A stretch of 64,000 nucleotides of DNA from Minisyncoccota bacterium. GTDB lineage: Bacteria; Patescibacteriota; Minisyncoccia; Phycocordibacterales; JAQTLZ01. Below the pieces are notes generated by a model. That model was not told where the DNA came from. It was given only the letters and a program-made list of their open reading frames with translations, and ran no database searches. Below are positions 8,255 through 29,704 of this stretch, piece after piece (the first letter of the stretch is position 1; each line of letters starts with the position of its first letter). A program made the position numbers and the translations under genes. The stretch is taken from NCBI GenBank assembly GCA_028711065.1, contig JAQTSY010000005.1:7656-71655 (forward strand), in the 5' to 3' direction.

Positions 8255-9145
8255 TTAAATGAAGAGAAGGAAAAAGCCGGCAACAATAAACGATACCGAA
8301 ATTATTTTATGAAATATTTCATACGAATGTTTCGGATTGTAAACAAATTCCGAAAATTTCTTCCCGAAGAGAAGACCGAGCAAAAGCAAGAATACATACT
8401 GAAGTCCCACAAGCGCATTTACCAAAGACGCACTTGAAAGCTTTATTACGTAGAGAAAAAGCACCGCAGTAATGCCGGCAAGTACTTTATTGGATACGAT
8501 CATAAGCTTGGTCCCTCGGCTGGAACTTTTAAAACCTTCTCGAATAAGACGCAAATTTTCCGGCCAAATAAATAACATAATTGCTCCAAAGACATTTCCG
8601 ATCCGCGTCCAGAAAAATCCATTCACAAATGTCGTATCAGAAAGAACCATTTTTACAAGTACAGAGGAAATTCCAAGAAAAATCCCGGATGCGAGGATGT
8701 AAAACATGATTTTCGGCTTGAAACTGAAGTGCGACGTGAGAAGCGTACCCAAAACAAGAAAAATTGTTGCAAGAATAAAAAGGCTCGGCAAAAGTTCTTT
8801 CAGAAAAATAGACGAAAGAATAAAGGTGGATATTGCCGTCATGGCACCCACAACAGGAATAACGTCCAGTGGATCCGGAGAGCGCCGGAGTGCTTTATAA
8901 AGATATACAATCGCTTGAATATACGTAAAACCGCACAGAAGCGAGAAGATAATGATTTTGGTAGTGGGAACAGTAATATTTCCGGTGGGAATAAGGACAA
9001 GGACAATCGAAGAGAGAGCGCCGACAAAAAACGCATAAACTACCGAGTGAGGGAGTCTCTTTGTGACAACATATTTATCGATAAGAACGATGACGGCATT
9101 CAGAAGTTGAACGAAGACGACAAGAAGAAGCCAAAAGTATTGCAT
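8255..9145 (-). CDS. Integral membrane protein (about 10 TM segments; DMT/EamA-like fold possible)
   Basis: Highly hydrophobic. The start was moved to the internal Met (MQYFWLLL) to remove the 77-nt overlap with the GH1 gene. Confidence 0.4.
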   Translation of the reverse strand: MQYFWLLLVVFVQLLNAVIVLIDKYVVTKRLPHSVVYAFFVGALSSIVLVLIPTGNITVPTTKIIIFSLLCGFTYIQAIVYLYKALRRSPDPLDVIPVVGAMTAISTFILSSIFLKELLPSLFILATIFLVLGTLLTSHFSFKPKIMFYILASGIFLGISSVLVKMVLSDTTFVNGFFWTRIGNVFGAIMLFIWPENLRLIREGFKSSSRGTKLMIVSNKVLAGITAVLFLYVIKLSSASLVNALVGLQYVFLLLLGLLFGKKFSEFVYNPKHSYEIFHKIISVSFIVAGFFLLFI

Positions 9146-9149
9146 AATT

Positions 9150-10322
9150 TTAGAGAATGGTATTTGTCTCGCAGATTTTTTTATAAAGCAGGGCGGAGGG
9201 GCGAACGATACGTTCCATTGTATCATAATTTATTTTCACCAAGCCGAAGCGTTTGGTAAATCCTTCCGCCCATTCGTAGTTATCAAGAAGCGACCAGTAG
9301 AAGAATCCTTTTACATCCGCACCTTGTTCTATCGCCTGATGAACTGCGATAAGATGATCTCTGATGAATTTCCCTCTCTGGCTGTCATTTGCGTCTGCAA
9401 TGCCGTTTTCTGTTATATAGAGAGGTTTTTTGTACTCTTTCAGTTCCAGGAGCACATTTCGCAGTCCGTCCGGATAAACAGTCCATCCCATATCCGTGCG
9501 AGGCAAATTTTCAAGCTTCCCAAATGCAATATGTCGATAATAATTGACGCCGATAAAATCCTGGCACTCCCGGATGCCCTTCAGAAATTTATGATTCCAG
9601 AATTTGCGGGAAAAATTTGCCCGAACATCATTCCACCATCCTCCGCCAGAGCCGAAATCCATATTTTGTTTTGCAATGCCGATCTGGATCGAAGGATTTT
9701 TCTTTTTCATTTCGATGTATGCAAACCGGTGAGATTTCATCAAAATCTTGAGTGCTCTCCAATATTTTAAAATATCCCTTTTGAATGGTGGCCAGCCTCC
9801 GCGAAGATATCCATTCCCAAGCCAGACCATCGGCTCATTCATTGTCATCCAAAATTTCGCTTCGCTTCCAAGTTTTTCCACCACATATGCGCAATATCTG
9901 CCGAAAATTTCCGGTGCTTTTTTATTTTCAAATCCGCCCTTATCCCGAAACCAAAGAGGCAGAGTAAAGTGCCAAAGCGTCACAAAAGGCTCAAGCCCTC
10001 GCGCTTTGAGTGCGTGAAGAACTTTTCGATAATGCTCAATTTCTGCATCATCAAATTTCCCTTCTTCTGGCTCGATGCGGGCCCACTCGATTGAAAATCT
10101 GTGCGTGTTTTGAGAAAGTGATTTCGCAATATCAAAATCTTTTTCGTACAAATTGTAGTGATCGCAAGCTCGCCCGGTAAGAGGCACTTTTTTCTTCCGC
10201 CCAGCTTCAGCCCAATCCACATTCTCAATCCCGCCTTCTACCTGGTAAGAAGCCGTTGCACTCCCCCATAAAAACCCTTTCGGAAATTCTCGCGCTTGCG
10301 GAGCTGAAACATTTTTTTTCAT
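9150..10322 (-). CDS. GH1 beta-glucosidase
   Basis: FLWGSATASYQVEG near the N-terminus, TMNEP and ITENG catalytic motifs, and C-terminal WSLLDNYEWAEGF. The start was set at the internal MKKNVSAP. The 26-aa upstream extension in the ORF track looks spurious. Confidence 0.85.
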   Translation of the reverse strand: MKKNVSAPQAREFPKGFLWGSATASYQVEGGIENVDWAEAGRKKKVPLTGRACDHYNLYEKDFDIAKSLSQNTHRFSIEWARIEPEEGKFDDAEIEHYRKVLHALKARGLEPFVTLWHFTLPLWFRDKGGFENKKAPEIFGRYCAYVVEKLGSEAKFWMTMNEPMVWLGNGYLRGGWPPFKRDILKYWRALKILMKSHRFAYIEMKKKNPSIQIGIAKQNMDFGSGGGWWNDVRANFSRKFWNHKFLKGIRECQDFIGVNYYRHIAFGKLENLPRTDMGWTVYPDGLRNVLLELKEYKKPLYITENGIADANDSQRGKFIRDHLIAVHQAIEQGADVKGFFYWSLLDNYEWAEGFTKRFGLVKINYDTMERIVRPSALLYKKICETNTIL

Positions 10323-10420
10323 TATTGAATTATACAAGAAGTCTGTGATTTTGGCATACAAATCATACACAGCAAAACAATGTATTGCTTGTATCACTAG
10401 CCAAATCCAATTGAAATCCT

Positions 10421-10879
10421 TTATTCGCGGATAGAAATGGCCTTTTTAGTCACCTGAATCCATCGAAAAAAGAAAAAACCTATCACTGAAAAGAGAAGAC
10501 CTATACAAAAGAAGGTAATAGGAGTTCCCCAAAGCCCACCAAATGTATAAATTTTGTGCTGAGAGAAATCAGCAGAATAAATTACTTGAACCCTATCACC
10601 AATCTGATAAGGTTCCGCATTAATGCTAGACCCTGAATCGGAGGAGAAAGTCGTCTGATGCCCATCCACGATAAAAGAAACCTGTGGATAATAAGTATAT
10701 ACTGCGATACTCGAATTAGCAGATCTTGATATGACCTGCTTATATCCAACGACCTGTCCGCTTGTAACACTACCTCCCTGAAGAAGTCTGAAGCTAGAAA
10801 ATGCTACAAAGATAGATACGGAAAGAAAAACTACACCAACAGCACAGAAACAGACCATAAAAATCTTGAGAAATGTCAT
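10421..10879 (-). CDS. Small membrane protein with two terminal TM helices around a beta-rich core (DUF3592-like)
   Basis: 152 aa, TM at both ends, central ...SGQVVGYKQV...YTYYPQVSFIVDGH...IGDRVQVIY.... Confidence 0.4.
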   Translation of the reverse strand: MTFLKIFMVCFCAVGVVFLSVSIFVAFSSFRLLQGGSVTSGQVVGYKQVISRSANSSIAVYTYYPQVSFIVDGHQTTFSSDSGSSINAEPYQIGDRVQVIYSADFSQHKIYTFGGLWGTPITFFCIGLLFSVIGFFFFRWIQVTKKAISIRE

Positions 10880-10958
10880 GGATTGGAAAAGATAATTATG
10901 CTATTAGTTTAACATAAAATAGATAAAAAACTATCTGTTTACAAATCCGTACCCTATT

Positions 10959-10992
10959 CCTTAAATACTATCATATATGATAGTATTTAAGG
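10959..10992. promoter_or_regulatory. 34-bp perfect palindrome (core AAATACTATCATATATGATAGTATTT) in the divergent promoter region. Candidate operator or RBS-sequestering hairpin.
   Basis: CCTTAAATACTATCATATATGATAGTATTTAAGG is its own reverse complement. It ends 10 nt before the ATG at 11003, and the AAGGA Shine-Dalgarno lies inside its 3' arm. An identical 26-bp core recurs at 11439-11464. Confidence 0.5.
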
Positions 10993-11002
10993 ATACACAC
11001 AC

Positions 11003-11410
11003 ATGACACACGTATCAAGAAAACCGATGAAAAGTAAGGTTTCGAAACGACTCGAAAAAGAACTCTTGGCAGCTCTTGAACTCGCTTTTCATTCCAAACA
11101 ATCTAAGCCCCTCCTCCAATTACTTCTCACTCATACCGAGAAAATCATGTTGTCGAAACGCCTGGCAATACTGCACATGCTCGGACAAAATATACCGCAA
11201 GCAAAGATAGAGAAGGTATTGAAAGTCACAGCAGTTACTGTTTCGCGCTATACTCAAATTCTGAAAAGGGGTAAAAATGAATTGCCGGAAAATAAGCTGA
11301 AATTGAAGCGAGGCAGAAGAAAATCAAATGAACCAAACCTCTATAACGCTTTTGGACTCATGCCACCAATCGTCGGCCCAGGACGATGGGATTTTCTTGA
11401 TCGGTTGTAG
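11003..11410 (+). CDS. TrpR-like / YerC-YecD family small DNA-binding protein
   Basis: 135 aa. ...EKIMLSKRLAILHMLGQNIPQAKIEKVLKVTAVTVSRYTQIL... looks like the helix-turn-helix of the TrpR/YerC family. Confidence 0.55.
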   Translation: MTHVSRKPMKSKVSKRLEKELLAALELAFHSKQSKPLLQLLLTHTEKIMLSKRLAILHMLGQNIPQAKIEKVLKVTAVTVSRYTQILKRGKNELPENKLKLKRGRRKSNEPNLYNAFGLMPPIVGPGRWDFLDRL

Positions 11411-11433: not shown

Positions 11434-11469
11434 ACAGAAAATACTATCATATATGATAGTATTTTCTGT
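11434..11469. terminator. 36-bp perfect palindrome (same 26-bp core as at 10959). Candidate bidirectional terminator and/or second operator.
   Basis: ACAGAAAATACTATCATATATGATAGTATTTTCTGT lies between the convergent gene ends 11410 and 11526. T-rich sequence follows it on the plus strand. Confidence 0.5.
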
Positions 11470-11525: not shown

Positions 11526-12809
11526 TTAATACTCCAGAGCCTGTTCCATCTTTTTTTCGGCGAGGATCTGCGGAATGCCGTATGCCAGGCGATTCAATGT
11601 GACAATTTTATCTTTTATGCGAGAGGCGTATTTTTCTGATTCGGGAGGAATGCCGATGCCAGAGAAAGCGGTGCTTGTTTTCCCGTCGATCATGAGTTTT
11701 ATATAAAAATGAAAACGAGGAAGCCCCAAAAAGTCATCGACGGTCATCGGTTCAAATTCTTTCTCCAAAATCTCCGCGTCCTCGGCGCCAACTTCAAACG
11801 CGAGCATTGTGCCGATGTTTCCAAGCACGGCCTTCATAATCCCTTCTGGAAGTTGCGCCAAATACTGATTGGTAATGTGAATTCCCAACGCATATTTTCG
11901 GGATTCACTCAGGAGGCTTGTGAACGTGTCGGTCGTAAAATTTTGAAACTCATCGACGTAAAGATAGAACGGCACACGCCTATTCGCAGATTCATTCGCC
12001 CGTCTTTGAATCGCCCCCTGAAGACGCGAAATGAGAATGAGACCGAGCATATGCGCGTTTATATCTCCAATTTTTCCTTTTGAGAGATTCACAAGCAAAA
12101 TTTTATTACTGTTCATCAAGGTATCGAAATTGAAACTGCTCGTGCGCTGACCGATGATATTTCGCATCAGCTTATTGTTCATAAAATGCCCGAATTTGGA
12201 GAGGAAATAGTTGAGCATTTCACTCTTGTGGAAATCCGAAGTCTTCGCCATCTGTTTCGTCCAGAAATCAATCACCATCGGGTCTTTCAATTCTTTCCGC
12301 TTTTTCATCTCGAATTCTTTATCAACAAAAAGCTTTGGAATTTCCAATAGGCTTCCACCCTCCGGCCCCGCCATAACAGTCAAAGCGGCATTTCGAAGCC
12401 AATGCTCGAATTGAGGGCCGATGATTCCAGTTTTTTCCGGATCAAATAATTTATAGAATATTTGAATACATTCCCCCACCAAAAAATCTTTTTCCTGGTC
12501 ATCCCGTGCTTCCAAAAGATTTAATCCAAAAGGAAATTCCGTATCGCTTGGGTCAAAAAGGATGACATCTTCAAGCCGCTCTTTCGGAATATGTGAAAGA
12601 AGCCAATCAACAGACTCTCCATGCGGATCAATAAAACAAACCCCATGACCCTCTTTGATATCCTGAAGGCACATGTTTTGAAAAACGGTGGACTTCCCCA
12701 CTCCGGTTTTCCCAATCATATACATGTGTCGAAGACGATCTTTCTCATTCATTCCGATGAGGGTACGTCTGCCGTGATATTCATTTGCGCCGATGGTAAT
12801 AAATGACAT
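11526..12809 (-). CDS. P-loop NTPase of the VirD4/TraG/TrwB-like (FtsK-HerA superfamily) type; the kind annotated as type IV secretion system DNA-binding domain protein
   Basis: Walker A MIGKTGVGKST, DPHGE motif, Walker B YLYVDEFQNF. The start is set at the internal Met (MSFITIG). The upstream 21 codons in the ORF track fall inside a palindromic repeat. Confidence 0.5.
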   Translation of the reverse strand: MSFITIGANEYHGRRTLIGMNEKDRLRHMYMIGKTGVGKSTVFQNMCLQDIKEGHGVCFIDPHGESVDWLLSHIPKERLEDVILFDPSDTEFPFGLNLLEARDDQEKDFLVGECIQIFYKLFDPEKTGIIGPQFEHWLRNAALTVMAGPEGGSLLEIPKLFVDKEFEMKKRKELKDPMVIDFWTKQMAKTSDFHKSEMLNYFLSKFGHFMNNKLMRNIIGQRTSSFNFDTLMNSNKILLVNLSKGKIGDINAHMLGLILISRLQGAIQRRANESANRRVPFYLYVDEFQNFTTDTFTSLLSESRKYALGIHITNQYLAQLPEGIMKAVLGNIGTMLAFEVGAEDAEILEKEFEPMTVDDFLGLPRFHFYIKLMIDGKTSTAFSGIGIPPESEKYASRIKDKIVTLNRLAYGIPQILAEKKMEQALEY

Positions 12810-12822
12810 GTTAATTGTAGAT

Positions 12823-12987
12823 GAAATTATGAAAATGATGTTTTTTAAAATATTGCGCAAACTCGCGTGCACGGTCTGTCAACGACCCGCCTCGGGCGGG
12901 CTTATTGACAGACGCGAGTTGAGCATAGCAAAAATTCTCGCAGGGAATTTTATGTCGTATTTTAAAAAACATCATTTTCATAATTTC
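12823..12987. repeat. 165-bp MITE-like palindromic element: 30-bp perfect terminal inverted repeats around a 105-bp core with nested inverted repeats and a GC hairpin
   Basis: GAAATTATGAAAATGATGTTTTTTAAAATA (12823-12852) is the exact reverse complement of 12958-12987. Inside are ACTCGCGT..TCTGTCAA / TTGACAGACGCGAGT and CCCGCC-TCG-GGCGGG. The two mirror-image artefact ORFs (12793..13035 + and 12811..13005 -) come from this symmetry. Confidence 0.6.
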
Positions 12988-12997
12988 GTAAGTCATA

Positions 12998-13315
12998 TTA
13001 TTCAAAAAAAGTTAGGTCAAGCGATTTTTCCGTAAAATAATTCTCATCCAAAACTCGTTTTCGATTTTTCTTTGCCTCCTGAAGCTCTTTTTCTTTTTGG
13101 ATAATAAGAGCAAATTCTTTTGCTTCCCTGCTTATTTTTTCGATAAGCGATTTCTGAAGAGGAATGGAAATATACTCGGAAAGCGAAGAAAGCATTTCTG
13201 TTCGTTGTGCGTGCATTTTTTCAAGAGAAGGAGATGCGGCAAGTTTCCCGTCGATTTTCGCCTCCTCCAAACTCATCCCCACTTCCACTGAATGTAATTT
13301 TTCGTTTTTTCTCAT
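12998..13315 (-). CDS. Small coiled-coil protein (hypothetical)
   Basis: 105 aa, charged and helical (EKELQEAKKNRKR...). Its start is 2 nt downstream of the end of the Clp-like gene, so it is probably co-transcribed. Confidence 0.35.
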   Translation of the reverse strand: MRKNEKLHSVEVGMSLEEAKIDGKLAASPSLEKMHAQRTEMLSSLSEYISIPLQKSLIEKISREAKEFALIIQKEKELQEAKKNRKRVLDENYFTEKSLDLTFFE

Positions 13316-13316
13316 C

Positions 13317-14981
13317 CTATTTTTTGTTTAAAAGGGAGCGGGCAAGAAGCGATTCACATGTTTCCTCAATAAATCGCTTTACTGGACGTGCGCCGAAACG
13401 CGGGTCAACCATGGTTTTTATTCTTGCTTCGAGAAGTTTCGGATCAATATCAAACTGCACTCTATGTTTCGAAAGTCGTGCTTCAATTTTCTTGATTTCA
13501 AGCTGTGCAACCTCGACAAGACCCTTGAGAGAAAGCGGATTGAAAATGAGAATGCTGTCGAAGCGATTCAAAAATTCAAGGCGGAAAGTCTTCGCAAGTG
13601 CTGGTATTATTGTTTCTTTGAGAAAGGCTTCGCTTCCCAGATCAGTTCCCTTTTCGAATTCTTTCAGAATTTCATCCACAGCAATATTCGAAGTCGCCAT
13701 AATGATAGAGTGGCGAGCGTCTACGGTTTCATTTTGTCCTGAAGTGAGACGCCCGTCATCGAGAACCTGAAGAAAAATATCGAATACTTTTGGGTGTGCC
13801 TTTTCAATTTCATCGAGAAGAATGAGGCTGTGAGGTTCTTCGCGAAGCGCGTTGGTAAGAGCTCCTCCGTTTTCATATCCGATGTATCCTGCCGGAGCGC
13901 CGATAAGCCTCTGTACAGTGTGATCCTGCCCAAATTCCGACATATCAAAACGAATAAATGTTTCGCTTCGTCCGAACATATTTTCTGCAATAAGTTTTGC
14001 TGTTTCCGTTTTCCCCACACCGGATGGACCGAGCATAAGGAATGAACCGAGAGGCTTATTCGGATTTCGAATTCCTAGTTTCGCTCTTTGGAGCGTCGCA
14101 GCGATTTTCTTTATTGCTCCTTTTTGGTTGATTATTCTTTCGCTCAAAACAGATTCAAGATTTTTGAGCACATGAAGTTCATCGGGCTTTAATTGCGCTT
14201 TAGGAATTCCTGTTTTCCCAGCAACAACAGAAGCAATAATGTCGTCCGAAAGCTCTTTCTTTCCAAGCGACACCGCAAAGCCGAGGCTTTCATCAAGAAG
14301 ACTGACTGCTCCCCGAGGCAATTGCCCTAGTTTCGGAAATCGTTCTACAAAGCCAACAATTTCCTTGAGCACCGTAGCCGAAACCAAAATATGCTCCCCA
14401 TTCAAATTCGGCAGTGCTCTTTCGAGAATTTGTGCGTATTCAAGCGAAGTTTGATTCTTCACCTGTATCGTTTCAAAAGATTTCACAAACGCTGGATGTT
14501 CCCGCTCGAGCCAAGCATATTCATTCGGTTCAAGGGCCAAAACGATTCGCACGTGAGACTTTTTCAGAAGTATCTGGTAGAGGCGAAAAATATTTTTCAA
14601 AAGTGAACCGTTGCCAAATACCGCTCTGCCAAAATTATCAATAAATAAAACCGAAGGAGGCAAAGTGATCAGCGCCTGCTCAAAATATTTCGCGTACGTT
14701 TCATTTTCAAGTTCGTATAAATGCTCCGCATCAAGTTGGACGAATTGGAGCGAATCAAACTCTTTCTTCCCTGCCATTTTTTTCATCCAGCCATAGACAA
14801 GGGTAGTTTTCCCAATGCCATTTGAGCCAACAACAAGTACATTGTTGCTTATCTTTCGAGTTACAACACGAGTCAATCTCTCCATTTCTTCGGTACGACC
14901 AATCACATTCGGTAACTTTCCCGCTCGCACTTCTTTGCGAAGATCAAAATATTCAATTTTTTTAAAGTGAAAGTCAGTCAT
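13317..14981 (-). CDS. Clp/Hsp100-family double-AAA+ ATPase (ClpB/ClpC-like core without N-terminal and middle domains)
   Basis: D1 has Walker A GSNGIGKTT and an atypical Walker B VLFIDNFGR, with DN where DE is expected. D2 has Walker A GPSGVGKTE, Walker B LILLDEIEKAH, and sensor/arginine-finger context (HSIIMATSN). Confidence 0.7.
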   Translation of the reverse strand: MTDFHFKKIEYFDLRKEVRAGKLPNVIGRTEEMERLTRVVTRKISNNVLVVGSNGIGKTTLVYGWMKKMAGKKEFDSLQFVQLDAEHLYELENETYAKYFEQALITLPPSVLFIDNFGRAVFGNGSLLKNIFRLYQILLKKSHVRIVLALEPNEYAWLEREHPAFVKSFETIQVKNQTSLEYAQILERALPNLNGEHILVSATVLKEIVGFVERFPKLGQLPRGAVSLLDESLGFAVSLGKKELSDDIIASVVAGKTGIPKAQLKPDELHVLKNLESVLSERIINQKGAIKKIAATLQRAKLGIRNPNKPLGSFLMLGPSGVGKTETAKLIAENMFGRSETFIRFDMSEFGQDHTVQRLIGAPAGYIGYENGGALTNALREEPHSLILLDEIEKAHPKVFDIFLQVLDDGRLTSGQNETVDARHSIIMATSNIAVDEILKEFEKGTDLGSEAFLKETIIPALAKTFRLEFLNRFDSILIFNPLSLKGLVEVAQLEIKKIEARLSKHRVQFDIDPKLLEARIKTMVDPRFGARPVKRFIEETCESLLARSLLNKK

Positions 14982-14991
14982 TGCGAATTAT

Positions 14992-16827
14992 TTATGCGGC
15001 TCGTCTCATTGTAATACCGCTCGATGGATCACTTTCGGTATAATTTCTCTCCACTTCTACCTCATCTCTTGCCGGAGATTGTGAGCCCGCTGCGCCTCCC
15101 AGAATCCCAGTCCTCTCTCGGGATTCCGCAAAACTTACAATTTTTTCTTGCCCGCCTCCAGTCGCAGGCATCTCTAGAGCCATTTGAGACCCATCTTGGT
15201 TTTCATTTTCTCGTTCCCGCTCCACACCAACCTTTTGCAGAGATTCTTGTCTTACTTCAGCACGAGAAATGTAAGGAGAAATAATAGGTGCTTTTTCAGA
15301 AGTTTCCTTCGCTTCAGATTTTTCAGTTTTTTCTCGGCTTTCAACTTCCGGTTTCTGTTCTTTTACTGGAATAATCTTTTCCTCTTTTATTTGAGGTTTT
15401 TCAGCAACAGTTTCTTCGGACTTTTCGACTTTTTCAAGCTTTTTGATTTCTGGTTTTACTAATTTTACTTTTTCAATGACAGGAACGATTTTCACTGGCT
15501 CTAATTCTTCTTTAGACTCTTCCATCTTCCTCTCTCGAATAATCGGTTCTTCTTTTGGAATTTCATCCTTAATAACAACATCCTGGGCCTCCACGACGGG
15601 AGACACTTCAACTTCTTTCTCCAACACTTCAGGAAGTATCTTTAACTCGATACCCGTAGGCATTTCTTCTTGCACCCGAACGTCAATAATAACCTTCTCA
15701 ACTTTATCCGTTTCTAATACAACTTCTTCAGGTGTAGTTTGGTCTTGAGAAATTATAGTTTCTTTATCCTCTTCAATTTTTACTTGCGGTTCTTTGGTTT
15801 CGATTTCTGGCGCGACATCCTCTATAATAATTTCTTCATCTTTGATTTCAGACATTTCTACCGCAACAACCTTTGTTTCTTCAGTTCTTTCAGTCTTTTT
15901 TGTAACAGCAGAAGTATCTGCTTTTTCTTGAGGCTTGAGAACCTCTTTTTGAACTGCTTCTGGTTTAGAAACGGTTTCCGGAGAAGATAGCTGCGCTTTC
16001 AAAGTATTAAAGTACGATGTGCCGTTAAACAAAGAGGCGATAGAAAAAGTATCGATGGTATTGGCCTTTTCTACTTCATCGTGTGTGGTTTGGCCTTCTT
16101 GAGCATTTGAAAAAGTCCCCACAGAATTTTCCATTCCCAACTGCCCACGCAATTCAGCATTTACATCAATAACAAGCGGTTCGGCCTGCATGAAAGGATC
16201 TCCATTATCAAAAGGCATACTTCCTTCATCAGAACCATCATCTTGATTGGCTTCAGTGAGCTTTACGAGTTCTTGTTCTGGATGTAAGTAATGGGAATAT
16301 TTAATCTCATTATTCTGGCCTTCAAGACGAACAAAAGTTACATGGGTACCTTTTTCATCAACAATTTTAAAAGAATAAGATCCTTTTTCAGCCAGACCCC
16401 TTCTCATCTCTTCATCTATCTTTCGAAAATTCTCATTCTCGTTCACAGAACCTTTCCCCTCCTTATCAGTCAGACACTCTTCGGTCGCCAAATCATAGAT
16501 TTTTCCATCTGTTTCATTTAAGTAAGTTTTATCACCGGAAATATTTATTTCATCATCTACCCCCCACTCCTTACCCCTTCCCCCATGTTCTTTCGCGATA
16601 ATTGCTCGAATATCTCCGTCTCTCCACTCTCCTCTTTCGTCTTTTCGTGAAGGCTTTTCTCCTAATTCTGTTTTAGACTCTCCTTCGGCCCCAGTCTCTT
16701 CAACACGCGAAGCTTCAGGATTGCCAAAATCTTCTCTGTAATCAAAAGCACGAAGAGGCTCTTCCGCGACGAAAGAACCTAAACCTGCCTGTTCTTCTAA
16801 TTCTGCTGTTGGAGCTGGCTCATCCAT
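14992..16827 (-). CDS. Large hyper-acidic E/K-rich low-complexity repeat protein (hypothetical, about 610 aa)
   Basis: Long runs of EKxxEVKP-type repeats (KEEPIIRERKMEESKEELEPVKIVPVIEKVKLVKPEIKK...). No signal peptide. The start is set at MDEPAP. The 28 upstream codons in the track are hydrophobic junk. Confidence 0.5.
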   Translation of the reverse strand: MDEPAPTAELEEQAGLGSFVAEEPLRAFDYREDFGNPEASRVEETGAEGESKTELGEKPSRKDERGEWRDGDIRAIIAKEHGGRGKEWGVDDEINISGDKTYLNETDGKIYDLATEECLTDKEGKGSVNENENFRKIDEEMRRGLAEKGSYSFKIVDEKGTHVTFVRLEGQNNEIKYSHYLHPEQELVKLTEANQDDGSDEGSMPFDNGDPFMQAEPLVIDVNAELRGQLGMENSVGTFSNAQEGQTTHDEVEKANTIDTFSIASLFNGTSYFNTLKAQLSSPETVSKPEAVQKEVLKPQEKADTSAVTKKTERTEETKVVAVEMSEIKDEEIIIEDVAPEIETKEPQVKIEEDKETIISQDQTTPEEVVLETDKVEKVIIDVRVQEEMPTGIELKILPEVLEKEVEVSPVVEAQDVVIKDEIPKEEPIIRERKMEESKEELEPVKIVPVIEKVKLVKPEIKKLEKVEKSEETVAEKPQIKEEKIIPVKEQKPEVESREKTEKSEAKETSEKAPIISPYISRAEVRQESLQKVGVERERENENQDGSQMALEMPATGGGQEKIVSFAESRERTGILGGAAGSQSPARDEVEVERNYTESDPSSGITMRRAA

Positions 16828-17066
16828 TTTGTATAAAAAAATAAAGACAAAAAATCCTTCTCGATGAAAGAAGGTGACGAAGAGACGCACGCGCGCACTC
16901 TTTAATCTCACATCCTTTACTCGAGGACTGACGAAACATACTTTCGTGCGCGGTATTCGGACTTCTCTTTTTCAAGAGTTACCGTAGCGGTACTGTGCCG
17001 GAATTACACCGGACTTCCCCAACGCAACGAAATAATTTTTCAAACACAACAATCAAAACCGGAAAC

Positions 17067-17192: not shown

Positions 17193-18077
17193 CTAAGAAC
17201 ACATCTCTTCAATCACTCCGTCCGTTAGATCATTATTACTAGGAAAAATCTCTGTGGCACCGACTTTCTTTGCAATTGCAAGATAAACAGATTGTCCAAC
17301 GGCAATATTGTCGCAAAACGCCGGATCTTTCGGATACATCTTTTTTAATTCATCGATTGGTGTTCGCCTTAATTTCTGAACATAATCAGAAAAACCATCC
17401 GGAGAAAACAGTATTGTGTGCACAGGAAATGTGCCTTGTGTAAAAGATAACTTAAGAGGAGAACTGATTAATTCTACGAAATGCAAGATTCCGGTGACAA
17501 AAATAATATCTGCCTTTTCGTTTATGATCATTTCCGCCTCTAAATACTTGTCGAGACTATCCCAATCAATAGCGCCATCACTCCGTAAAAATTTTGCCTT
17601 CAAAAATTTAACTCCGAAAGGGAATTTATTAAAGCTTTTTAGATCTTTCTTATATCCAAAAACTAATTCTGTACTTCCTCCGCCAATATTTACTGCTGCA
17701 AACTGGATTTTTGATGGAATCATATTAACAAACCCTTTATAGAGATAAAGAGCCTCTTTCTCTTGAGAAATAACCTCTGGCGTCACAGAAAGAATGTCCT
17801 CAACCATTCGGCAAAACTCGGGAGCATTTTTTGCTTTTCTCAAAGCCTCTGTGCCAAGGACTTTTAGCATTTTCACGCCTTCTTTTTTATTTCGGGCCAA
17901 AGCAACCGAAAGAAGCTCTGAAGCTCTCTGAAATGCCTCGGGAGCAATATTTTCAGCTACACCGAGACCAACATCGGAATATCGTTCAAAATGTATAAGT
18001 TTTTTGGGACCTTTTTTTACTTCAAAAATATAATGTTTGAGACTTTGAGTTCCAATATCAATGATCGAGATTTTCAT
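17193..18077 (-). CDS. Ppx/GppA-family phosphatase (exopolyphosphatase / pppGpp phosphohydrolase-like)
   Basis: MKISIIDIGTQSLKHYIF... and VNIGGGSTEL actin-like ATPase-fold motifs typical of Ppx/GppA. 294 aa. Confidence 0.7.
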   Translation of the reverse strand: MKISIIDIGTQSLKHYIFEVKKGPKKLIHFERYSDVGLGVAENIAPEAFQRASELLSVALARNKKEGVKMLKVLGTEALRKAKNAPEFCRMVEDILSVTPEVISQEKEALYLYKGFVNMIPSKIQFAAVNIGGGSTELVFGYKKDLKSFNKFPFGVKFLKAKFLRSDGAIDWDSLDKYLEAEMIINEKADIIFVTGILHFVELISSPLKLSFTQGTFPVHTILFSPDGFSDYVQKLRRTPIDELKKMYPKDPAFCDNIAVGQSVYLAIAKKVGATEIFPSNNDLTDGVIEEMCS

Positions 18078-18502
18078 GAATTGAAATAAACTCTTTTTTT
18101 CTGGTAATTTTCTAAAATAACTTTCGATCCCGAGAAAAGGGGCTCTGGCAGATTATCGAGCGGATACCAATCCCATTCTCCGCTTTTTTCTGGCTCCATC
18201 ACCCGCGGCTCTCCGCTTGACCAATCTGCCGACATTCCGATATGAACATAATGCCGAGGGGGATATAATTTCGTCGTACCAACCGAAACAAATCGAATAT
18301 TTTTTATTTCAATATCGCATTCCTCTTTCGTTTCGCGCATTGCGCACTCTTCAAACGTCTCCATGTACTCCAAATGTCCCCCGGGAAATTGATATTCCCC
18401 ATTCCCAAATTGCCCTTTTCTTTTAGCTAAAAGAATTTTGCCATCTTTGAAAACAATGACGCCCATCCCCACTCTGGGTTTTAATTCTTTTGAATCAGCC
18501 AT
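18074..18502 (-). CDS. NUDIX hydrolase
   Basis: Nudix box GGHLEYMETFEECAMRETKEECDI. 4-nt overlap (ATGA) with the downstream Ppx/GppA gene. Confidence 0.8.
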   Translation of the reverse strand: MADSKELKPRVGMGVIVFKDGKILLAKRKGQFGNGEYQFPGGHLEYMETFEECAMRETKEECDIEIKNIRFVSVGTTKLYPPRHYVHIGMSADWSSGEPRVMEPEKSGEWDWYPLDNLPEPLFSGSKVILENYQKKRVYFNS

Positions 18503-18506
18503 AAAA

Positions 18507-19052
18507 TTAAAACTTCATATGGAACCAATCAAGCCCGTAAATGTCGTTTATAAGCGCTCTTTCTCCCTTAGCCCATGTTTTATTTTTTGAAAGACCGAGA
18601 AGCGCGATTGCTTCTTTCACGTGTTCTTCGCTATTTCCTTCAATTTCGAGATACGCTGGCATTTGGGGATATTGATCGATATCAAATACCCAGTCTTTCA
18701 AAACAAAAGAGATCCTATCTTTTTCTTGATGTCCGTACAGTTCAAGACCAAGCTCTACAAAAAGATCGGCTAATTTTTCGGATTCCTCAATATTAAAATT
18801 AATTTCTTTGTGCTTGCGAGCAGTTCCCAAAATTTCCGATTTGGCTTTCCACGTCACTTCGCGTTTCCCTTCTGAATTCTGCCTAATTCGAAGAAACCAC
18901 GGATCATCACCTGCATGAGTAAGTCCCTTCGGGCCGAACCAATCGACAATAAGACGAGTTTCTTTAGTCTTCTTTGCGCCTAATTCTTTGAGCTTCGCGA
19001 TCAAATCCTTGCTGTCGATATCCAAAACCTTCGTCTCAATTTCATGCGCCAT
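18507..19052 (-). CDS. CYTH-domain protein (triphosphate-tunnel metalloenzyme; CyaB/ThTPase-like)
   Basis: N-terminal EIETKVL (ExExK), LRIRQ, and C-terminal YLEIEG acidic motifs of the CYTH fold. 181 aa. Confidence 0.6.
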   Translation of the reverse strand: MAHEIETKVLDIDSKDLIAKLKELGAKKTKETRLIVDWFGPKGLTHAGDDPWFLRIRQNSEGKREVTWKAKSEILGTARKHKEINFNIEESEKLADLFVELGLELYGHQEKDRISFVLKDWVFDIDQYPQMPAYLEIEGNSEEHVKEAIALLGLSKNKTWAKGERALINDIYGLDWFHMKF

Positions 19053-19057
19053 AAAAA

Positions 19058-19684
19058 TTAGGAGAAAATTTTAGCTACCGTGTCTGCAAAAGAAACATCC
19101 TTCAGCATGTCCTTTTTCCAACCCTGAACAAACTGTGTGAGAAATTTCTTCGCGATCTTGTCTTCCATGCCTTGTATCATTTTGATAAAAGTCGAGCTAA
19201 TGAGCTCTACATCAGATTTCATGAATTTATTGGCATACATTTTAAAATGCACAGCCTCAATATAATCAGCAATTTTTGCAATGCGTGATTCGTCTGATTC
19301 AAACGCCTGTTCTTCTTTTAAAAGATCTGCAAAATATCCTTTCTGTGCGCCAAAAAGACCGGAAAGATAGCGCTGATTTTCTATTTCAAATTTCTTCGCG
19401 TGCTTATAAGCTTCGGGATTTGCTTTCCTGTATCGCATAGAAATATCGCCTCCGAAAAGTTCCCCCAGATCATGCACGAGCGAAAGTTCAAGAACTTTTT
19501 TTATGTCGATCTTTGCGCCTTTCGTATTGAGAGAAGCGGCGATCTGCCACGCAAGCATTGCTACCAAATATTGATGCTCTGCCAGATTCGAAAGCGGCAT
19601 GTCTCCGCCATTTACGGCATACCCATACTGCGGCTGTTTGCGGGTAAGTTCCAAAATATGAAAAAGTTTCGTAAGGTGTTCCAT
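19058..19684 (-). CDS. HD-domain phosphohydrolase (YfbR-like)
   Basis: ...HQYLVAMLAW...LVHDLGELFGGD... is an H..HD-type metal-binding pattern. Confidence 0.65.
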   Translation of the reverse strand: MEHLTKLFHILELTRKQPQYGYAVNGGDMPLSNLAEHQYLVAMLAWQIAASLNTKGAKIDIKKVLELSLVHDLGELFGGDISMRYRKANPEAYKHAKKFEIENQRYLSGLFGAQKGYFADLLKEEQAFESDESRIAKIADYIEAVHFKMYANKFMKSDVELISSTFIKMIQGMEDKIAKKFLTQFVQGWKKDMLKDVSFADTVAKIFS

Positions 19685-25327: not shown

Positions 25328-26956
25328 TCACGAGGAAGTAAAGAGCACACCTTCGTATGGCCGGAGGGTAACAGTATTCTCTTTTGAAGAAAGAGGCGTG
25401 TTCATGTACGTCGAACATGCAATTTGTAATTTCCTTCCTTCGACAACAAGTTCTTCATTCACTATTTCATTTGAAAAGTTGAGCATGACAAACCACTCTT
25501 CTTTCGATGTCTTTCTGCTGTAAAAGAATACATCGGATGATTTCGCGTTTCTCGGAACGTATTCGCCATAGCGAAGAGCCTCCGATGCGTTCCTATAGTA
25601 GAGAAGCATTTTATAAAGATAAAACATTGATTCCGGATTCGCCCTTTCTGTTTTCACATTCACCTTCGCGTAGTCTTCAGAGACGGGGAGCCAAGGTTCC
25701 ACTTCTGAAAAGCCTGCGTTCAAATCATCCGACCATTGCATCGGCGTCCTTTCCGGATCACGAAGAATGGAAGGATTTTCAATGAGCGTGGCGAAGCCGT
25801 CTTTCATTTTGTGTTTTGGTATTTCCACATTTTTCATGCCTATTTCTTCTCCGTAATAGACAAAAACAGTACCCCGAAGCGTAAGAAGCATGAGAGCGAG
25901 AAGCCGTGTACGAGTCTCTCCAAAGCGCGTAAGTACTCTCCTATGATCATGGTTACCCAGCACATAGGTCGGAACTCTTTTTGGTCCAACAAGCTTATCG
26001 AAAGCGTTTATAAATGCTCTGTAAATTTCTGCAGACCACGGCTTTTTAAATAATTCAAAAAGATTGAAATTAAAAGGAGTATGATTCCGATACGTACACC
26101 CGTCATAGATCTTTATAAGCTGTGTAAGATCGACATACGATTCTGTCACAATAAAGATGTCCCGATATTTTTTCGAGGATTCGCATATTAGATTAATAAC
26201 TCCGATTACTTCCGGCTGATTTTCATCATACATATGAAGATACTCATCGTATGGCAAATCAACCCCCTTCACGAAATGAGTATTCACAGGGTCATCCCGA
26301 AAACGCTTGTCTTCAACTGTATGCGCGACAGCATCCACACGAAAACCATCGACTCCCCTTTTGAGCCAGAAATCAATTATCTTTTTAAATTCTTTGCGCA
26401 CCTCATCGTTTCTCCAATTCAAATCTGGCTGATGCGGAAGGAAATGATGAAGATAGCATTGTCCAGTCGATGGGTCAGGTGTCCATGCAGAACCGCCGGA
26501 AACAGCAAGCCAATTATTCGGTGGCAAACCTCCTGGAAGCGGATCCTTCCAGACATACCAATCTCTTTTCGGATTGGTTTTCGACATTCTAGCTTCTTGA
26601 AACCAAGGATGCTCGCGGGAAGTGTGATTGACCACCAAATCCATAATAATTTTAAGTCCCCGCTTATGCGCCTCCGCAACAAGCTTGTCAAAAATCTCGA
26701 GCGTCCCGAATCGAGGATCTATATCGCAATAATCGGTCACATCATAGCCAAAATCTTTCATCGGCGATGGGTAGACGGGTGAAATCCACAAAGCATCAAC
26801 TCCTAATGAATGCGGGCTGCCCCGGAAATAATCGAGTCTTGAAATAATACCTTCAAGGTCGCCAATACCGTCTCCGTTGGAATCTTGAAAGCTCCACGGA
26901 TAGATCTGATAGATAACCGCGTTTTCGTACCACTTCGGCCGTTGAAACCAAAACAT
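25328..26956 (-). CDS. GH13 alpha-glucosidase / oligo-1,6-glucosidase-like
   Basis: YQIYPWSF, DGIGDLEGI, GVDALWISP, DLVVNHTS, GFRVDAV. These are the canonical GH13 regions. Confidence 0.85.
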   Translation of the reverse strand: MFWFQRPKWYENAVIYQIYPWSFQDSNGDGIGDLEGIISRLDYFRGSPHSLGVDALWISPVYPSPMKDFGYDVTDYCDIDPRFGTLEIFDKLVAEAHKRGLKIIMDLVVNHTSREHPWFQEARMSKTNPKRDWYVWKDPLPGGLPPNNWLAVSGGSAWTPDPSTGQCYLHHFLPHQPDLNWRNDEVRKEFKKIIDFWLKRGVDGFRVDAVAHTVEDKRFRDDPVNTHFVKGVDLPYDEYLHMYDENQPEVIGVINLICESSKKYRDIFIVTESYVDLTQLIKIYDGCTYRNHTPFNFNLFELFKKPWSAEIYRAFINAFDKLVGPKRVPTYVLGNHDHRRVLTRFGETRTRLLALMLLTLRGTVFVYYGEEIGMKNVEIPKHKMKDGFATLIENPSILRDPERTPMQWSDDLNAGFSEVEPWLPVSEDYAKVNVKTERANPESMFYLYKMLLYYRNASEALRYGEYVPRNAKSSDVFFYSRKTSKEEWFVMLNFSNEIVNEELVVEGRKLQIACSTYMNTPLSSKENTVTLRPYEGVLFTSS

Positions 26957-26989
26957 GGTTTTATTATAACGCAGATTGTAAAATCTATC

Positions 26990-28138: not shown

Positions 28139-28146
28139 ACAAGAAA

Positions 28147-29649: not shown

Positions 29650-29704
29650 AAAATGTGCAAGTGGGTACAATAATACCACATTTTCGGCCTATTTCAAAGG
29701 AGCA

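What the first reader, a model, noticed from the sequence alone, without database searches (positions are those of the whole stretch)
11526..16911. Odd co-directional cluster: VirD4/TraG-like P-loop ATPase, coiled-coil protein, Clp-like AAA+ with a dead first Walker B, and a 600-aa hyper-acidic repeat protein
On the minus strand the order is:
1. The 600-aa E/K-rich acidic repeat protein.
2. A Clp/Hsp100-like double-AAA+ protein, reduced to the two ATPase cores, in which the D1 Walker B reads DN instead of DE. That suggests ATP binding without hydrolysis.
3. A small coiled-coil protein.
4. The palindromic element.
5. A VirD4/TraG/TrwB-like ATPase with Walker A, DPHGE and DEFQNF motifs.

No other type IV secretion or conjugation genes are nearby. 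A coupling-protein-like ATPase plus an unfoldase-like AAA+ next to an extremely acidic, unstructured protein could be a dedicated translocation or unfolding system for that substrate. Alternatively it could be a remnant of a mobile element.
Basis: inference. Interest (0 to 1): 0.55.

Follow-up and report, generated by a model that had tools for sequence, protein, structure and literature searches.

The report
B12-riboswitch-controlled unfoldase/coupling-ATPase operon

Summary
The four minus-strand genes exist as described, with corrected starts: acidic protein 611 aa, ATPase 427 aa.

The decisive new fact is an AdoCbl/cobalamin riboswitch (16903-17044, minus strand) plus a terminator-like hairpin directly upstream of the acidic-protein gene.

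In 80 species-level genomes carrying a relative of the ATPase:
- All 47 with an orthologue (at least 59% identity) keep the order acidic protein, Clp-like AAA+, about 100-aa helical protein, ATPase. Median intergenic gaps are 10, 1 and 4 nt.
- All 39 with enough upstream sequence have a cobalamin-riboswitch match in the same place (36 strong, 3 marginal).
- The 33 paralogue loci have neither feature.

The acidic proteins are hypervariable and mostly disordered, but share a small N-domain and a C-terminal tail (LNGITLRRAA; 28 of 39 end in Ala-Ala). The Clp-like protein never has a D1 catalytic glutamate, has an invariant canonical D2 motor, and has no ClpP-docking loop. The ATPase has no transmembrane segment and folds like a type IV coupling protein.

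The palindrome is a lineage-specific insertion of about 185 nt.

Best reading: a B12-repressed, two-motor machine that handles its own acidic client. Its physiological output is unknown. The mobile-element reading is rejected.

The parts
16903..17044 (-). AdoCbl/cobalamin riboswitch aptamer, 5' of the operon
   Evidence: Rfam RF01482 scores 60.5 bits against a gathering score of 50 and matches the full model 1-149. My own covariance model R1 scores 92 bits. Across 37 orthologous sites, 90.5% of cells are paired and 117 cells carry compensatory changes; 0 of 500 shuffles reach this.
16846..16874 (-). Expression platform: terminator-like hairpin CCTTCTTTCATCGAGAAGG followed by a T-run, between the aptamer and the start codon
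   Evidence: Found by the terminator scan. The same kind of hairpin plus T5 is found in 17 of 38 other loci. In the unconstrained fold, the 5' half of the terminator pairs instead with the 3' arm of aptamer helix P13, which fits an anti-terminator (inference).
14992..16827 (-). Polyacidic, mostly disordered protein (611 aa, pI 4.55, net charge -62). It is the first gene after the riboswitch and the proposed client.
   Evidence: ORF. It has no Pfam, NCBIfam, PADLOC or PHROG hit. AlphaFold2 mean pLDDT is 40, with secondary structure essentially only in residues 70-181. A positional equivalent of 237-910 aa (pI 4.0-5.5 in 38 of 39, the exception L034 at 6.3) is present in all operon loci.
16285..16620 (-). 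Small alpha/beta N-domain of the acidic protein (residues about 70-181)
   Evidence: The family HMM finds this domain in 27 of 39 positional equivalents. The window copy matches weakly, at 10.5 bits over residues 99-180. It aligns with P0122-P0125. It is the only structured part of the model. There is no PDB relative.
14995..15024 (-). Conserved C-terminal tail SGITMRRAA-COOH (family consensus LNGIT[LM][RK][RI]AA)
   Evidence: Of 39 tails, 35 end in Ala and 28 in Ala-Ala, against at most 5% of background ORFs.
13317..14981 (-). Minimal Hsp100/Clp-type double AAA+ protein (554 aa): degenerate D1, canonical D2, ClpB_D2-small domain
   Evidence: Pfam finds AAA_2 (190.8 bits) and ClpB_D2-small. 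It aligns to ClpA over residues 13-551. Motif conservation in 45 orthologues is. None of the 45 has a ClpP-docking [LIVM]G[FLM] loop.
12998..13315 (-). Small conserved protein (105 aa); C-terminal motif VL...YF.QK.L
   Evidence: An ORF of 75-140 aa occupies this slot in 46 of 47 operon loci. All 20 library relatives are stand-alone proteins of 84-113 aa. No Pfam or PDB hits.
12810..12993 (.). Palindromic insertion of about 185 nt (MITE-like) between the small gene and the ATPase gene. It is not part of the conserved system.
   Evidence: It is absent from the 90%-identical locus L001, where the stop of the small gene and the ATPase ATG are 1 nt apart. It is unique in the window and absent from 80 loci. 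It forms a very stable hairpin.
11526..12809 (-). Type IV coupling protein (VirD4/TrwB)-like P-loop ATPase with no transmembrane segment (427 aa)
   Evidence: Pfam matches DUF87 and TrwB_AAD_bind just above their cut-offs. The AlphaFold2 model has pLDDT 82 and pTM 0.85. Foldseek finds DotL, HerA, Cagbeta (TM 0.64) and TrwB (0.60/0.61). It is 70-78% identical across Paceibacterota lineages.
11434..11469 (.). Perfect 18+18-nt palindrome followed by a T-run. It is a likely bidirectional terminator that closes the operon and the convergent TrpR-like gene.

Best explanation
This is a conserved operon of the Parcubacteria/Paceibacterota branch of Patescibacteria, switched off by cobalamin.

A cobalamin riboswitch sits in the 5' leader. 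When B12 is bound, helix P13 of the aptamer forms, the downstream terminator hairpin forms, and transcription stops. When B12 is scarce, the four genes are transcribed together.

They encode a cytoplasmic two-motor protein-handling machine and its own client:
1. The client is a polyacidic, largely disordered protein with a small N-terminal domain and a conserved C-terminal tail ending in Ala-Ala.
2. A minimal Hsp100-type hexamer handles it. Its D1 ring binds nucleotide but lacks the catalytic glutamate, so it probably serves assembly. Its D2 ring is the threading motor. It has no ClpP-docking loop, so it unfolds or remodels rather than degrades.
3. A helical protein of about 100 aa acts as an adaptor.
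4. A type IV coupling-protein-like hexameric ATPase with no transmembrane segment recognises or pumps the polyanionic chain, possibly handing it to an envelope conduit encoded elsewhere.

Shown: the riboswitch, the operon structure, their conservation, the motif states, the fold and the tail.
Inferred: the OFF logic, that the acidic protein is the client, the roles of the two rings and of the small protein, and any export step.
Unknown: the physiological purpose of making this machine when B12 is low.
For: Riboswitch:
- Rfam hit above the gathering score in the window, and in 7 of 8 related loci tested, always just 5' of the acidic-protein gene.
- Covariance model R1 finds it on the operon strand in 38 operon loci plus the window, and in none of the 33 paralogue loci. 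L038 matches weakly with the filters off.
- Strong covariation.
- A terminator-like hairpin lies between aptamer and ATG in the window and in 17 of 38 loci. An alternative pairing fits an anti-terminator.

Operon:
- The gene order is identical in 47 of 47 orthologue loci from different species.
- Median gaps are 10, 1 and 4 nt.
- Independent gene calls give the same four genes.
- There is no other conserved neighbour.

Client:
- The sequence is hypervariable, with only 3 homologues found by word-based search.
- Acidity, the N-domain and the C-terminal LNGITLRRAA tail are nevertheless conserved.
- It is predicted to be disordered.

Motors:
- Clp D1 is never DE, its pore loop is unconserved, and D2 is invariant.
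- There is no ClpP loop.
- The ATPase fold is closest to the coupling proteins Cagbeta, TrwB and DotL, with a helical insert at residues 104-233.

Literature: 5,713 VirD4-like genes were reported in Patescibacteria, only 148 of them near virB4, and exaptation was proposed (PMC12102498).
Against: - No physical or expression data exist. Ligand binding and the OFF direction are inferred from family membership and predicted hairpins, and 21 of 38 loci show no clear terminator by my criteria.
- Three of the 39 riboswitch matches are marginal: L012, L024 and L038.
- Nothing in the operon is membrane-bound, and no channel or type IV secretion gene is linked, so export is unsupported.
- The ATPase superfamily mostly moves DNA, and HerA scores nearly as well as the coupling proteins.
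- The client role of the acidic protein rests on gene position and a tail motif only.
- The link between B12 and such a machine has no precedent and no mechanistic rationale yet.
- I could not check whether these genomes encode B12-dependent enzymes or B12 transporters.
Confidence: 0.5

Rival explanations
1. The operon is a DNA-handling response to deoxynucleotide shortage. When B12 is low, a B12-dependent (class II) ribonucleotide reductase stalls. The coupling-protein/HerA-like ATPase then translocates DNA, for uptake, salvage or repair. The acidic protein acts as a DNA mimic or regulator, and the Clp-like protein remodels the complex.
For: The ATPase fold belongs to the FtsK/HerA/coupling-protein DNA-translocase superfamily. 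NCBIfam gives partial matches to TraD and to the DNA-translocating ATPase CedD. By established knowledge, B12 riboswitches commonly control B12-independent routes to deoxynucleotides (nrdDG, nrdEF). The window carries a YfbR-like 5'-deoxynucleotidase and NUDIX, CYTH and Ppx genes just upstream. Polyacidic proteins can mimic DNA.
Against: No nuclease, DNA-binding, ComEC-like or channel gene is linked in any of 47 loci. The nucleotide-metabolism neighbours are not conserved in other loci. The partner motor is a protein-threading Hsp100 with an invariant GYVG pore loop. The conserved C-terminal tail points to a protein substrate. Presence of a class II reductase in these genomes was not tested.
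Confidence: 0.2
2. The operon serves cobalamin or cobalt acquisition or trafficking. The acidic protein, through its N-domain or its carboxylate-rich chain, captures B12 or cobalt, and the two ATPases load, release or deliver it. This would parallel riboswitch-controlled B12-capture proteins in other bacteria.
For: By established knowledge, uptake and scavenging genes are the most common class under B12 riboswitches. In Mycobacterium tuberculosis a B12 riboswitch precedes a secreted PPE protein gene (PPE2-cobQ-cobU; my own knowledge). The riboswitch directly precedes the acidic-protein gene in all testable loci.
Against: None of the four proteins has a signal peptide, a membrane segment or a known B12-binding domain. 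The N-domain has no invariant residues and is undetectable in 12 of 39 proteins. No transporter is linked. Unfoldases and coupling ATPases have no known role in moving small molecules.
Confidence: 0.1
3. The cluster is a remnant of a conjugative or mobile element, or a phage-derived or anti-phage defence module, with a decayed coupling protein.
For: There are weak matches to conjugative TraD/VirD4 models and to HerA and mad8 defence models. A palindromic MITE-like insertion lies inside the cluster. A paralogous, longer form matches a phage protein family.
Against: The ATPase is 70-78% identical across distant lineages, with all catalytic motifs intact. The operon is in single, syntenic form in 47 species with varied chromosomal neighbours and no relaxase, integrase or type IV secretion genes. 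No close relative was found in viral contigs. The defence-model scores are low and partial. The insertion is absent from the closest relative.
Confidence: 0.03

Closest known systems
Type IV coupling proteins (VirD4, TrwB, DotL, Cagbeta)
   Same: P-loop nucleotide-binding domain with Walker A and Walker B (VDEF), plus an inserted all-helical domain. The best structural matches are Cagbeta 8dol (TM 0.64), TrwB 1e9s (0.60/0.61) and DotL 6sz9. Known coupling proteins read C-terminal signals of their substrates and work with small adaptor proteins (IcmS/IcmW/LvgA, CagZ; established knowledge). This resembles the tail and the 105-aa protein seen here.
   Different: There is no N-terminal membrane anchor, since the protein starts about 30 residues before Walker A. 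It is not next to virB4, a relaxase or any channel gene. It always sits in an operon with an Hsp100-type ATPase under a B12 riboswitch. It is far more conserved (70-78%) than mobile-element coupling proteins.
Class I Hsp100/Clp unfoldases (ClpB, ClpA/ClpC, ClpV/TssH)
   Same: Two AAA+ modules and the ClpB_D2-small domain. D2 matches ClpB/ClpC D2 at E about 1e-90, with a GYVG-type pore loop, Walker B DE, sensor 1, arginine finger and GAR sensor 2.
   Different: Only 554 aa. It has no N-domain, no coiled-coil M-domain (so no DnaK coupling as in ClpB) and no ClpP-docking loop. D1 never has the catalytic Glu and its pore loop is unconserved.
Secretion systems that pair a translocase ATPase with an AAA+ helper (type VII EccC + EccA with about 100-aa WXG100 substrates; type VI ClpV)
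   Same: The cast is similar: an FtsK/HerA-superfamily ATPase, an AAA+ ATPase, a helical protein of about 100 aa and a large, fast-evolving acidic protein. This is an analogy from established knowledge.
   Different: There is no homology beyond the ATPase superfamilies, and no membrane components. The small protein has no WXG100 match. Secretion is not shown.
Cobalamin riboswitch regulons (btuB, btuFCD, cob/cbi, metE, nrdDG/nrdEF)
   Same: The same RNA clan (RF00174, RF01482, RF01689) sits in the 5' leader in the sense orientation, with a terminator-type platform.
   Different: The controlled genes belong to none of the known classes (transport, biosynthesis, B12-independent isozymes). I found no paper linking a cobalamin riboswitch to Patescibacteria, to Clp ATPases or to coupling proteins.
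SsrA-type C-terminal degrons read by ClpX/ClpA
   Same: A conserved C-terminal ...AA-COOH on an unstructured chain, next to a Clp-family motor.
   Different: The tail is genome-encoded, longer (LNGITLRRAA) and basic. The partner lacks a ClpP-docking loop, so degradation is not the expected outcome.

Membership tests
Cobalamin riboswitch (Rfam clan CL00101) | Score at or above the curated gathering threshold over the full aptamer model | tested here: met
   Window: RF01482, 60.5 bits against 50, model positions 1-149. Seven of 8 related loci pass for RF01482, RF01689 or RF00174.
Cobalamin riboswitch (Rfam clan CL00101) | Conserved core helices maintained by compensatory changes | tested here: met
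   Over 37 sequences, 90.5% of cells are paired, 11 of 15 pairs change on both sides, and 0 of 500 shuffles reach the covariation score. The slid controls collapse. The alignment was fitted to the model, which favours the structure.
Cobalamin riboswitch (Rfam clan CL00101) | Sense orientation in the 5' leader of the controlled gene, with an expression platform | tested here: met
   All 39 hits are on the operon strand, 15-148 nt before the acidic-protein start. A terminator-like hairpin is present in the window and in 17 of 38 loci.
Cobalamin riboswitch (Rfam clan CL00101) | Binds a cobalamin and changes expression | not testable with these tools
   Needs in-line probing or ITC, and reporter or transcript assays.
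Type IV coupling protein (VirD4/TrwB family) | Nucleotide-binding domain with Walker A and B of the FtsK/HerA/VirB4/VirD4 superfamily | tested here: met
   GKTGVGKS and VDEF are invariant in 30 homologues. Pfam TrwB_AAD_bind scores 21.9 bits (cut-off 20.5) and DUF87 scores 24.8 (cut-off 23.2).
Type IV coupling protein (VirD4/TrwB family) | All-alpha domain inserted in the nucleotide-binding domain; overall fold closest to solved coupling proteins | tested here: inconclusive
Type IV coupling protein (VirD4/TrwB family) | N-terminal transmembrane anchor | tested here: not met
   The protein begins 32 residues before Walker A, and the model starts with a beta-hairpin. The homologues are all about 426 aa.
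Type IV coupling protein (VirD4/TrwB family) | Genomic association with a type IV secretion channel (VirB4 and others) or a relaxase | tested here: not met
   No such neighbour appears within 10 kb in 47 loci or among the largest ORFs of the window. The literature reports only 148 of 5,713 Patescibacteria homologues near virB4.
ClpB disaggregase | Coiled-coil M-domain between D1 and D2, and an N-terminal domain | tested here: not met
   The 554 aa align to ClpA residues 174-720 without the insert. ClpB matches cover only D2, residues 218-553. Orthologues are 538-559 aa.
ClpA/ClpC/ClpX protease partners | ClpP-docking [LIV]-G-[FL] loop | tested here: not met
   None in the relevant D2 segment of 45 orthologues.
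Hsp100/Clp class I AAA+ (general) | Two AAA+ modules with a C-terminal D2-small domain and a GYVG-type D2 pore loop | tested here: met
   Pfam AAA_2, AAA and ClpB_D2-small. The G-Y-[VI]-G motif and all D2 motifs are invariant.
Hsp100/Clp class I AAA+ (general) | Catalytically competent D1 (Walker B hhhhDE) | tested here: not met
   The second residue is D, N, G or S in 45 of 45 orthologues, and never E. The Walker A lysine is kept in 42 of 45.

The most novel reading that the evidence does not exclude
Patescibacteria have exapted a DNA-coupling ATPase to pump a DNA-like polyanionic protein. When cobalamin is absent, the cell makes a polyacidic, tail-tagged protein. A ClpP-independent unfoldase and a coupling-protein ring with no membrane anchor feed it into the envelope or the type IV secretion apparatus, and onto or into a host cell. 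Cobalamin might signal either starvation or the absence of a B12-rich host such as a methanogen. This would be a new, metabolite-gated host-interaction or secretion route in the candidate phyla radiation.
Probability: 0.15. Interest if true: 0.9.

Novelty: new variant of a known kind. Interest (0 to 1): 0.74.

Why it matters
Patescibacteria make up a large share of bacterial diversity, yet almost nothing is known about how they sense or regulate anything.

- This is a widely conserved, ligand-controlled operon in that group, so its expression can be manipulated and measured with a cheap small molecule.
- A recent survey counted thousands of coupling-protein genes in these genomes that are not linked to secretion genes, and could only suggest exaptation (PMC12102498). 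This finding gives the orthologue group studied here — a subset of those VirD4-like homologues — a fixed set of partners and a regulatory input.
- It adds a gene class to the B12 regulon that fits none of the known categories (transport, biosynthesis, B12-independent isozymes).
- It describes a naturally 'D1-dead', ClpP-independent minimal Hsp100 with a candidate dedicated client and tag. That is an attractive minimal system for studying substrate selection by AAA+ unfoldases.

Tried and rejected
- Mobile-element, phage or defence origin. PADLOC and PHROG scans gave only weak or partial hits. The viral-contig scan found no relative. There are no integrase or relaxase neighbours.
- The palindrome as a functional part of the system. 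It is absent from the closest relative and from all 80 loci.
- A repeat structure in the acidic gene. None found.
- Homologues of the acidic protein. Full-length search gave 3 proteins and the N-domain profile gave 2, too few for a good model. The AlphaFold2 model was too poor for a fold search.
- PDB and Pfam searches for the small protein and the N-domain gave nothing credible. The '4D2' hits are designed proteins.
- tmRNA tags for comparison with the AA tail. No tmRNA gene lies in the window or the loci.
- Literature. Searches combining cobalamin or riboswitch with Patescibacteria, Parcubacteria, CPR or ClpB found nothing relevant.
- Neighbourhoods of the paralogous ATPases (at most 50% identity). 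These proteins are 800-990 aa or are preceded by an extra ORF, and have no Clp gene or riboswitch, so they do not inform the function of the operon.
- Not used: the metagenome scan, because 47 species-level loci already gave a uniform picture.
- Not possible: whole-genome checks for B12-dependent enzymes, because only about 20 kb per genome could be fetched.

Full report
**Observation**

- The ATPase carries Walker A GKTGVGKS, IDPHGES and VDEFQNF. The Clp-like protein has FIDNF in place of a D1 Walker B DE.
- A perfect 30-nt inverted repeat lies between the small gene and the ATPase gene.

Two starts need correcting.
- The ATPase begins at ATG 12809 (427 aa). This is identical to a protein annotated in a Candidatus Pacebacteria metagenome-assembled genome and has the same length as thousands of homologues. 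The extra 21 codons of the 448-aa ORF run into the palindrome.
- The acidic protein most likely begins at ATG 16827 (611 aa). The GTG at 16911 that NCBI uses (P0121) lies inside a riboswitch aptamer and upstream of a terminator-like hairpin.

The acidic gene has no real tandem repeats.

**The missed element**

An Rfam scan of the window finds an AdoCbl/cobalamin riboswitch at 16903-17044 on the minus strand. It scores 60.5 bits against a gathering score of 50 and covers the full model. It lies between the stop of the upstream Ppx/GppA-family gene and the acidic-protein gene.

Twenty-nine bases downstream of the aptamer is a hairpin, CCTTCTTTCATCGAGAAGG, followed by ATTTTTTGTC. The ATG is about 30 nt further on.

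In an unconstrained fold, the 5' half of this hairpin pairs with the 3' arm of aptamer helix P13. That is what an anti-terminator would look like, and it fits the usual ligand-OFF logic. This step is inference.

**Conservation**

I fetched 80 species-representative loci that encode a relative of the ATPase.
- All 47 loci whose ATPase is at least 59% identical have a Clp-like orthologue (45-90% identical) immediately upstream.
- Between the two lies an ORF of 75-140 aa, and upstream of the Clp gene lies an acidic ORF of 237-910 aa (D+E 13-28%; pI 4.0-5.5 in 38 of 39, the exception L034 at 6.3).
- Median intergenic gaps are 10, 1 and 4 nt.
- Independent gene calls on a 420-kb contig show the same four genes.
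- The 33 loci with more distant ATPases (at most 50% identity, some from non-Patescibacteria phyla) have no Clp neighbour. There the ATPase domain is part of 800-990-aa proteins or follows an extra ORF.
- Outside the four genes nothing is conserved.

**The riboswitch is part of the unit**

- Rfam finds a cobalamin-clan riboswitch just 5' of the acidic gene in 7 of 8 loci tested.
- A covariance model built from seven of these finds 39 matches in 1.4 Mb. All are on the operon strand immediately upstream of the acidic ORF, in 38 operon loci and the window. None is in the paralogue loci.
- L038 gives a weak match when the filters are off.
- The remaining eight operon loci are cut off by contig ends.
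- So all 39 testable species have a match: 36 strong, and 3 marginal (L012, L024, L038).
- The helices are kept by compensatory changes: 90.5% of cells paired, 117 double-change cells, 0 of 500 shuffles as high, and slid controls collapse.
- By my criteria, a hairpin plus T-run lies between aptamer and start in 17 of 38 loci besides the window.

**The proteins**

Clp-like protein:
- It aligns to ClpA from the start of D1 to the end of D2-small.
- It lacks an N-domain and an M-domain, and in all 45 orthologues it lacks the ClpP-docking tripeptide.
- D1 keeps the Walker A lysine (42 of 45) but never the catalytic Glu (D 22, N 17, G 3, S 3), and its pore loop is not conserved.
- Every D2 motif is invariant.

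ATPase:
- It is 70-78% identical across Kaiser-, Nomura-, Wolfe- and Colwellbacteria and other Paceibacterota.
- Its model (pLDDT 82) has a short N-terminal beta-hairpin, a RecA-like core and a helical insert at residues 104-233.
- Foldseek ranks the coupling proteins DotL, Cagbeta (TM 0.64) and TrwB (0.60/0.61) with HerA (0.57) and VirB4 close behind. FtsK is not in the top 50.
- It has no membrane anchor.

Small protein:
- It is a genuine family (alignment A8).
- It has a conserved C-terminal VL...YF.QK.L motif and no known relatives.

Acidic protein:
- It evolves very fast, with only three homologues found by word-based search.
- A domain of about 100 aa is recognisable in 27 of 39 proteins, and weakly in the window.
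- The rest is predicted to be disordered.
- The C-terminus is conserved: consensus LNGIT[LM][RK][RI]AA. Of 39 tails, 35 end in Ala and 28 in Ala-Ala, against at most 5% of background ORFs.
- A motif resembling ILLRALGIP lies about 60 residues before the end in 17 of the 39 proteins by my pattern search; the window copy has no match to it.

**The palindrome**

Alignment with the 90%-identical locus L001 shows that the window carries an insertion of about 185 nt exactly between the small gene's stop and the ATPase ATG, which are 1 nt apart in L001. The insertion folds into a hairpin of -75 kcal/mol. It occurs nowhere else in the window or in the 80 loci. It is a MITE-like passenger, not a component. 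It may nevertheless attenuate read-through into the ATPase gene in this genome.

**Interpretation**

Firmly shown: a cobalamin-riboswitch-led four-gene operon conserved across many Parcubacteria-type lineages.

Most likely, at about 50% confidence: it encodes a cytoplasmic, ClpP-independent unfoldase and a coupling-protein-like ring with no membrane anchor. Together with a small adaptor, they act on the co-encoded polyacidic protein through its C-terminal tail, and are made when B12 is scarce.

Export is conceivable. Coupling proteins read C-terminal signals, Patescibacteria have a type IV secretion system elsewhere in the genome, and a recent survey noted that nearly all of their VirD4-like genes are unlinked to virB4 and may be exapted (PMC12102498). 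No membrane component is linked here, so export remains speculative.

Rivals:
- A DNA-handling response to dNTP shortage, about 0.2.
- A role in B12 or cobalt capture, about 0.1.
- A mobile-element remnant, about 0.03, essentially refuted.

**Novelty**

The parts belong to known families, but the assembly fits no described system.
- The Clp-like protein fails the defining tests for ClpB and for ClpA/C.
- The ATPase fails two defining tests for coupling proteins: the membrane anchor and linkage to type IV secretion genes.
- The controlled genes fit no known class of the B12 regulon.
- Searches of about 8 million papers and preprints found no description of a cobalamin riboswitch in Patescibacteria or upstream of such genes.

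I file it as a new variant of known kinds, with a real chance that it is a new kind of system.

Noticed in passing
window 12810-12993: A MITE-like palindromic insertion of about 185 nt sits exactly between the small gene's stop and the ATPase ATG. It has 30-nt perfect arms and an inner GC stem-loop. It is absent from the 90%-identical relative L001. Possible short target duplication around ...TAATATG / ...TTAACATG. It may attenuate or process the transcript before the ATPase gene in this genome only.
   Followed up: yes
window 14992-16911 (NCBI protein P0121, 639 aa): The public annotation starts the acidic protein at a GTG that lies inside the riboswitch aptamer. The likely true start is ATG 16827. 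Such mis-starts may hide this riboswitch in other annotated Patescibacteria genomes.
   Followed up: partly
window 10421-11410: A TrpR-like repressor gene (plus strand, 11003-11410) and a DUF3592 membrane-protein gene (10421-10879) lie between the operon and the beta-glucosidase gene. In L001 the beta-glucosidase gene follows the ATPase directly, so this is an indel between close relatives.
   Followed up: partly
window 11434-11469: A perfect 18+18-nt palindrome with flanking T/A runs lies between the convergent TrpR-like and ATPase genes. It is a probable bidirectional terminator.
   Followed up: no
window 17193-19684: Four co-directional genes lie just upstream of the riboswitch: Ppx/GppA-family, NUDIX, CYTH (triphosphate tunnel) and an HD/YfbR-like 5'-deoxynucleotidase. 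This looks like a nucleotide/polyphosphate-metabolism cluster. It is not conserved next to the operon in other species.
   Followed up: partly
L045, L047-L050, L053-L054, L058, L062, L071, L075 (around position 8800-11300): Paralogous coupling-protein-like ATPases (38-50% identical) are 800-990 aa, with an N-terminal extension of about 390 aa. The window ATPase matches positions 386-802 of phage family phrog_5156 (function unknown). L012 carries both the operon copy and a 39%-identical second copy (722-1930, opposite strand).
   Followed up: partly
L043 441-926 and nine other operon loci, about 5 kb upstream of the ATPase: In 10 of 47 loci, a protein of about 160 aa with a PaaX central (Cas2-like) domain is encoded on the same strand just upstream of the riboswitch. 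It could be an additional regulator in some lineages.
   Followed up: partly
L081 11337-12536: In one lineage, a 399-aa protein with a lytic transglycosylase (SLT) domain follows the ATPase gene on the same strand, 38 nt downstream. Such cell-wall-cutting enzymes accompany type IV secretion and pilus systems. Seen in one genome only.
   Followed up: no
window 58514-61180: An 888-aa minus-strand ORF has no Pfam match at E up to 1e-5.
   Followed up: no
window 25328-29679: A glycogen/starch gene cluster: alpha-amylase family, GH57 and starch-synthase-type glycosyltransferase. With the GH1 beta-glucosidase at 9150-10325, it fits a sugar-scavenging lifestyle.
   Followed up: no
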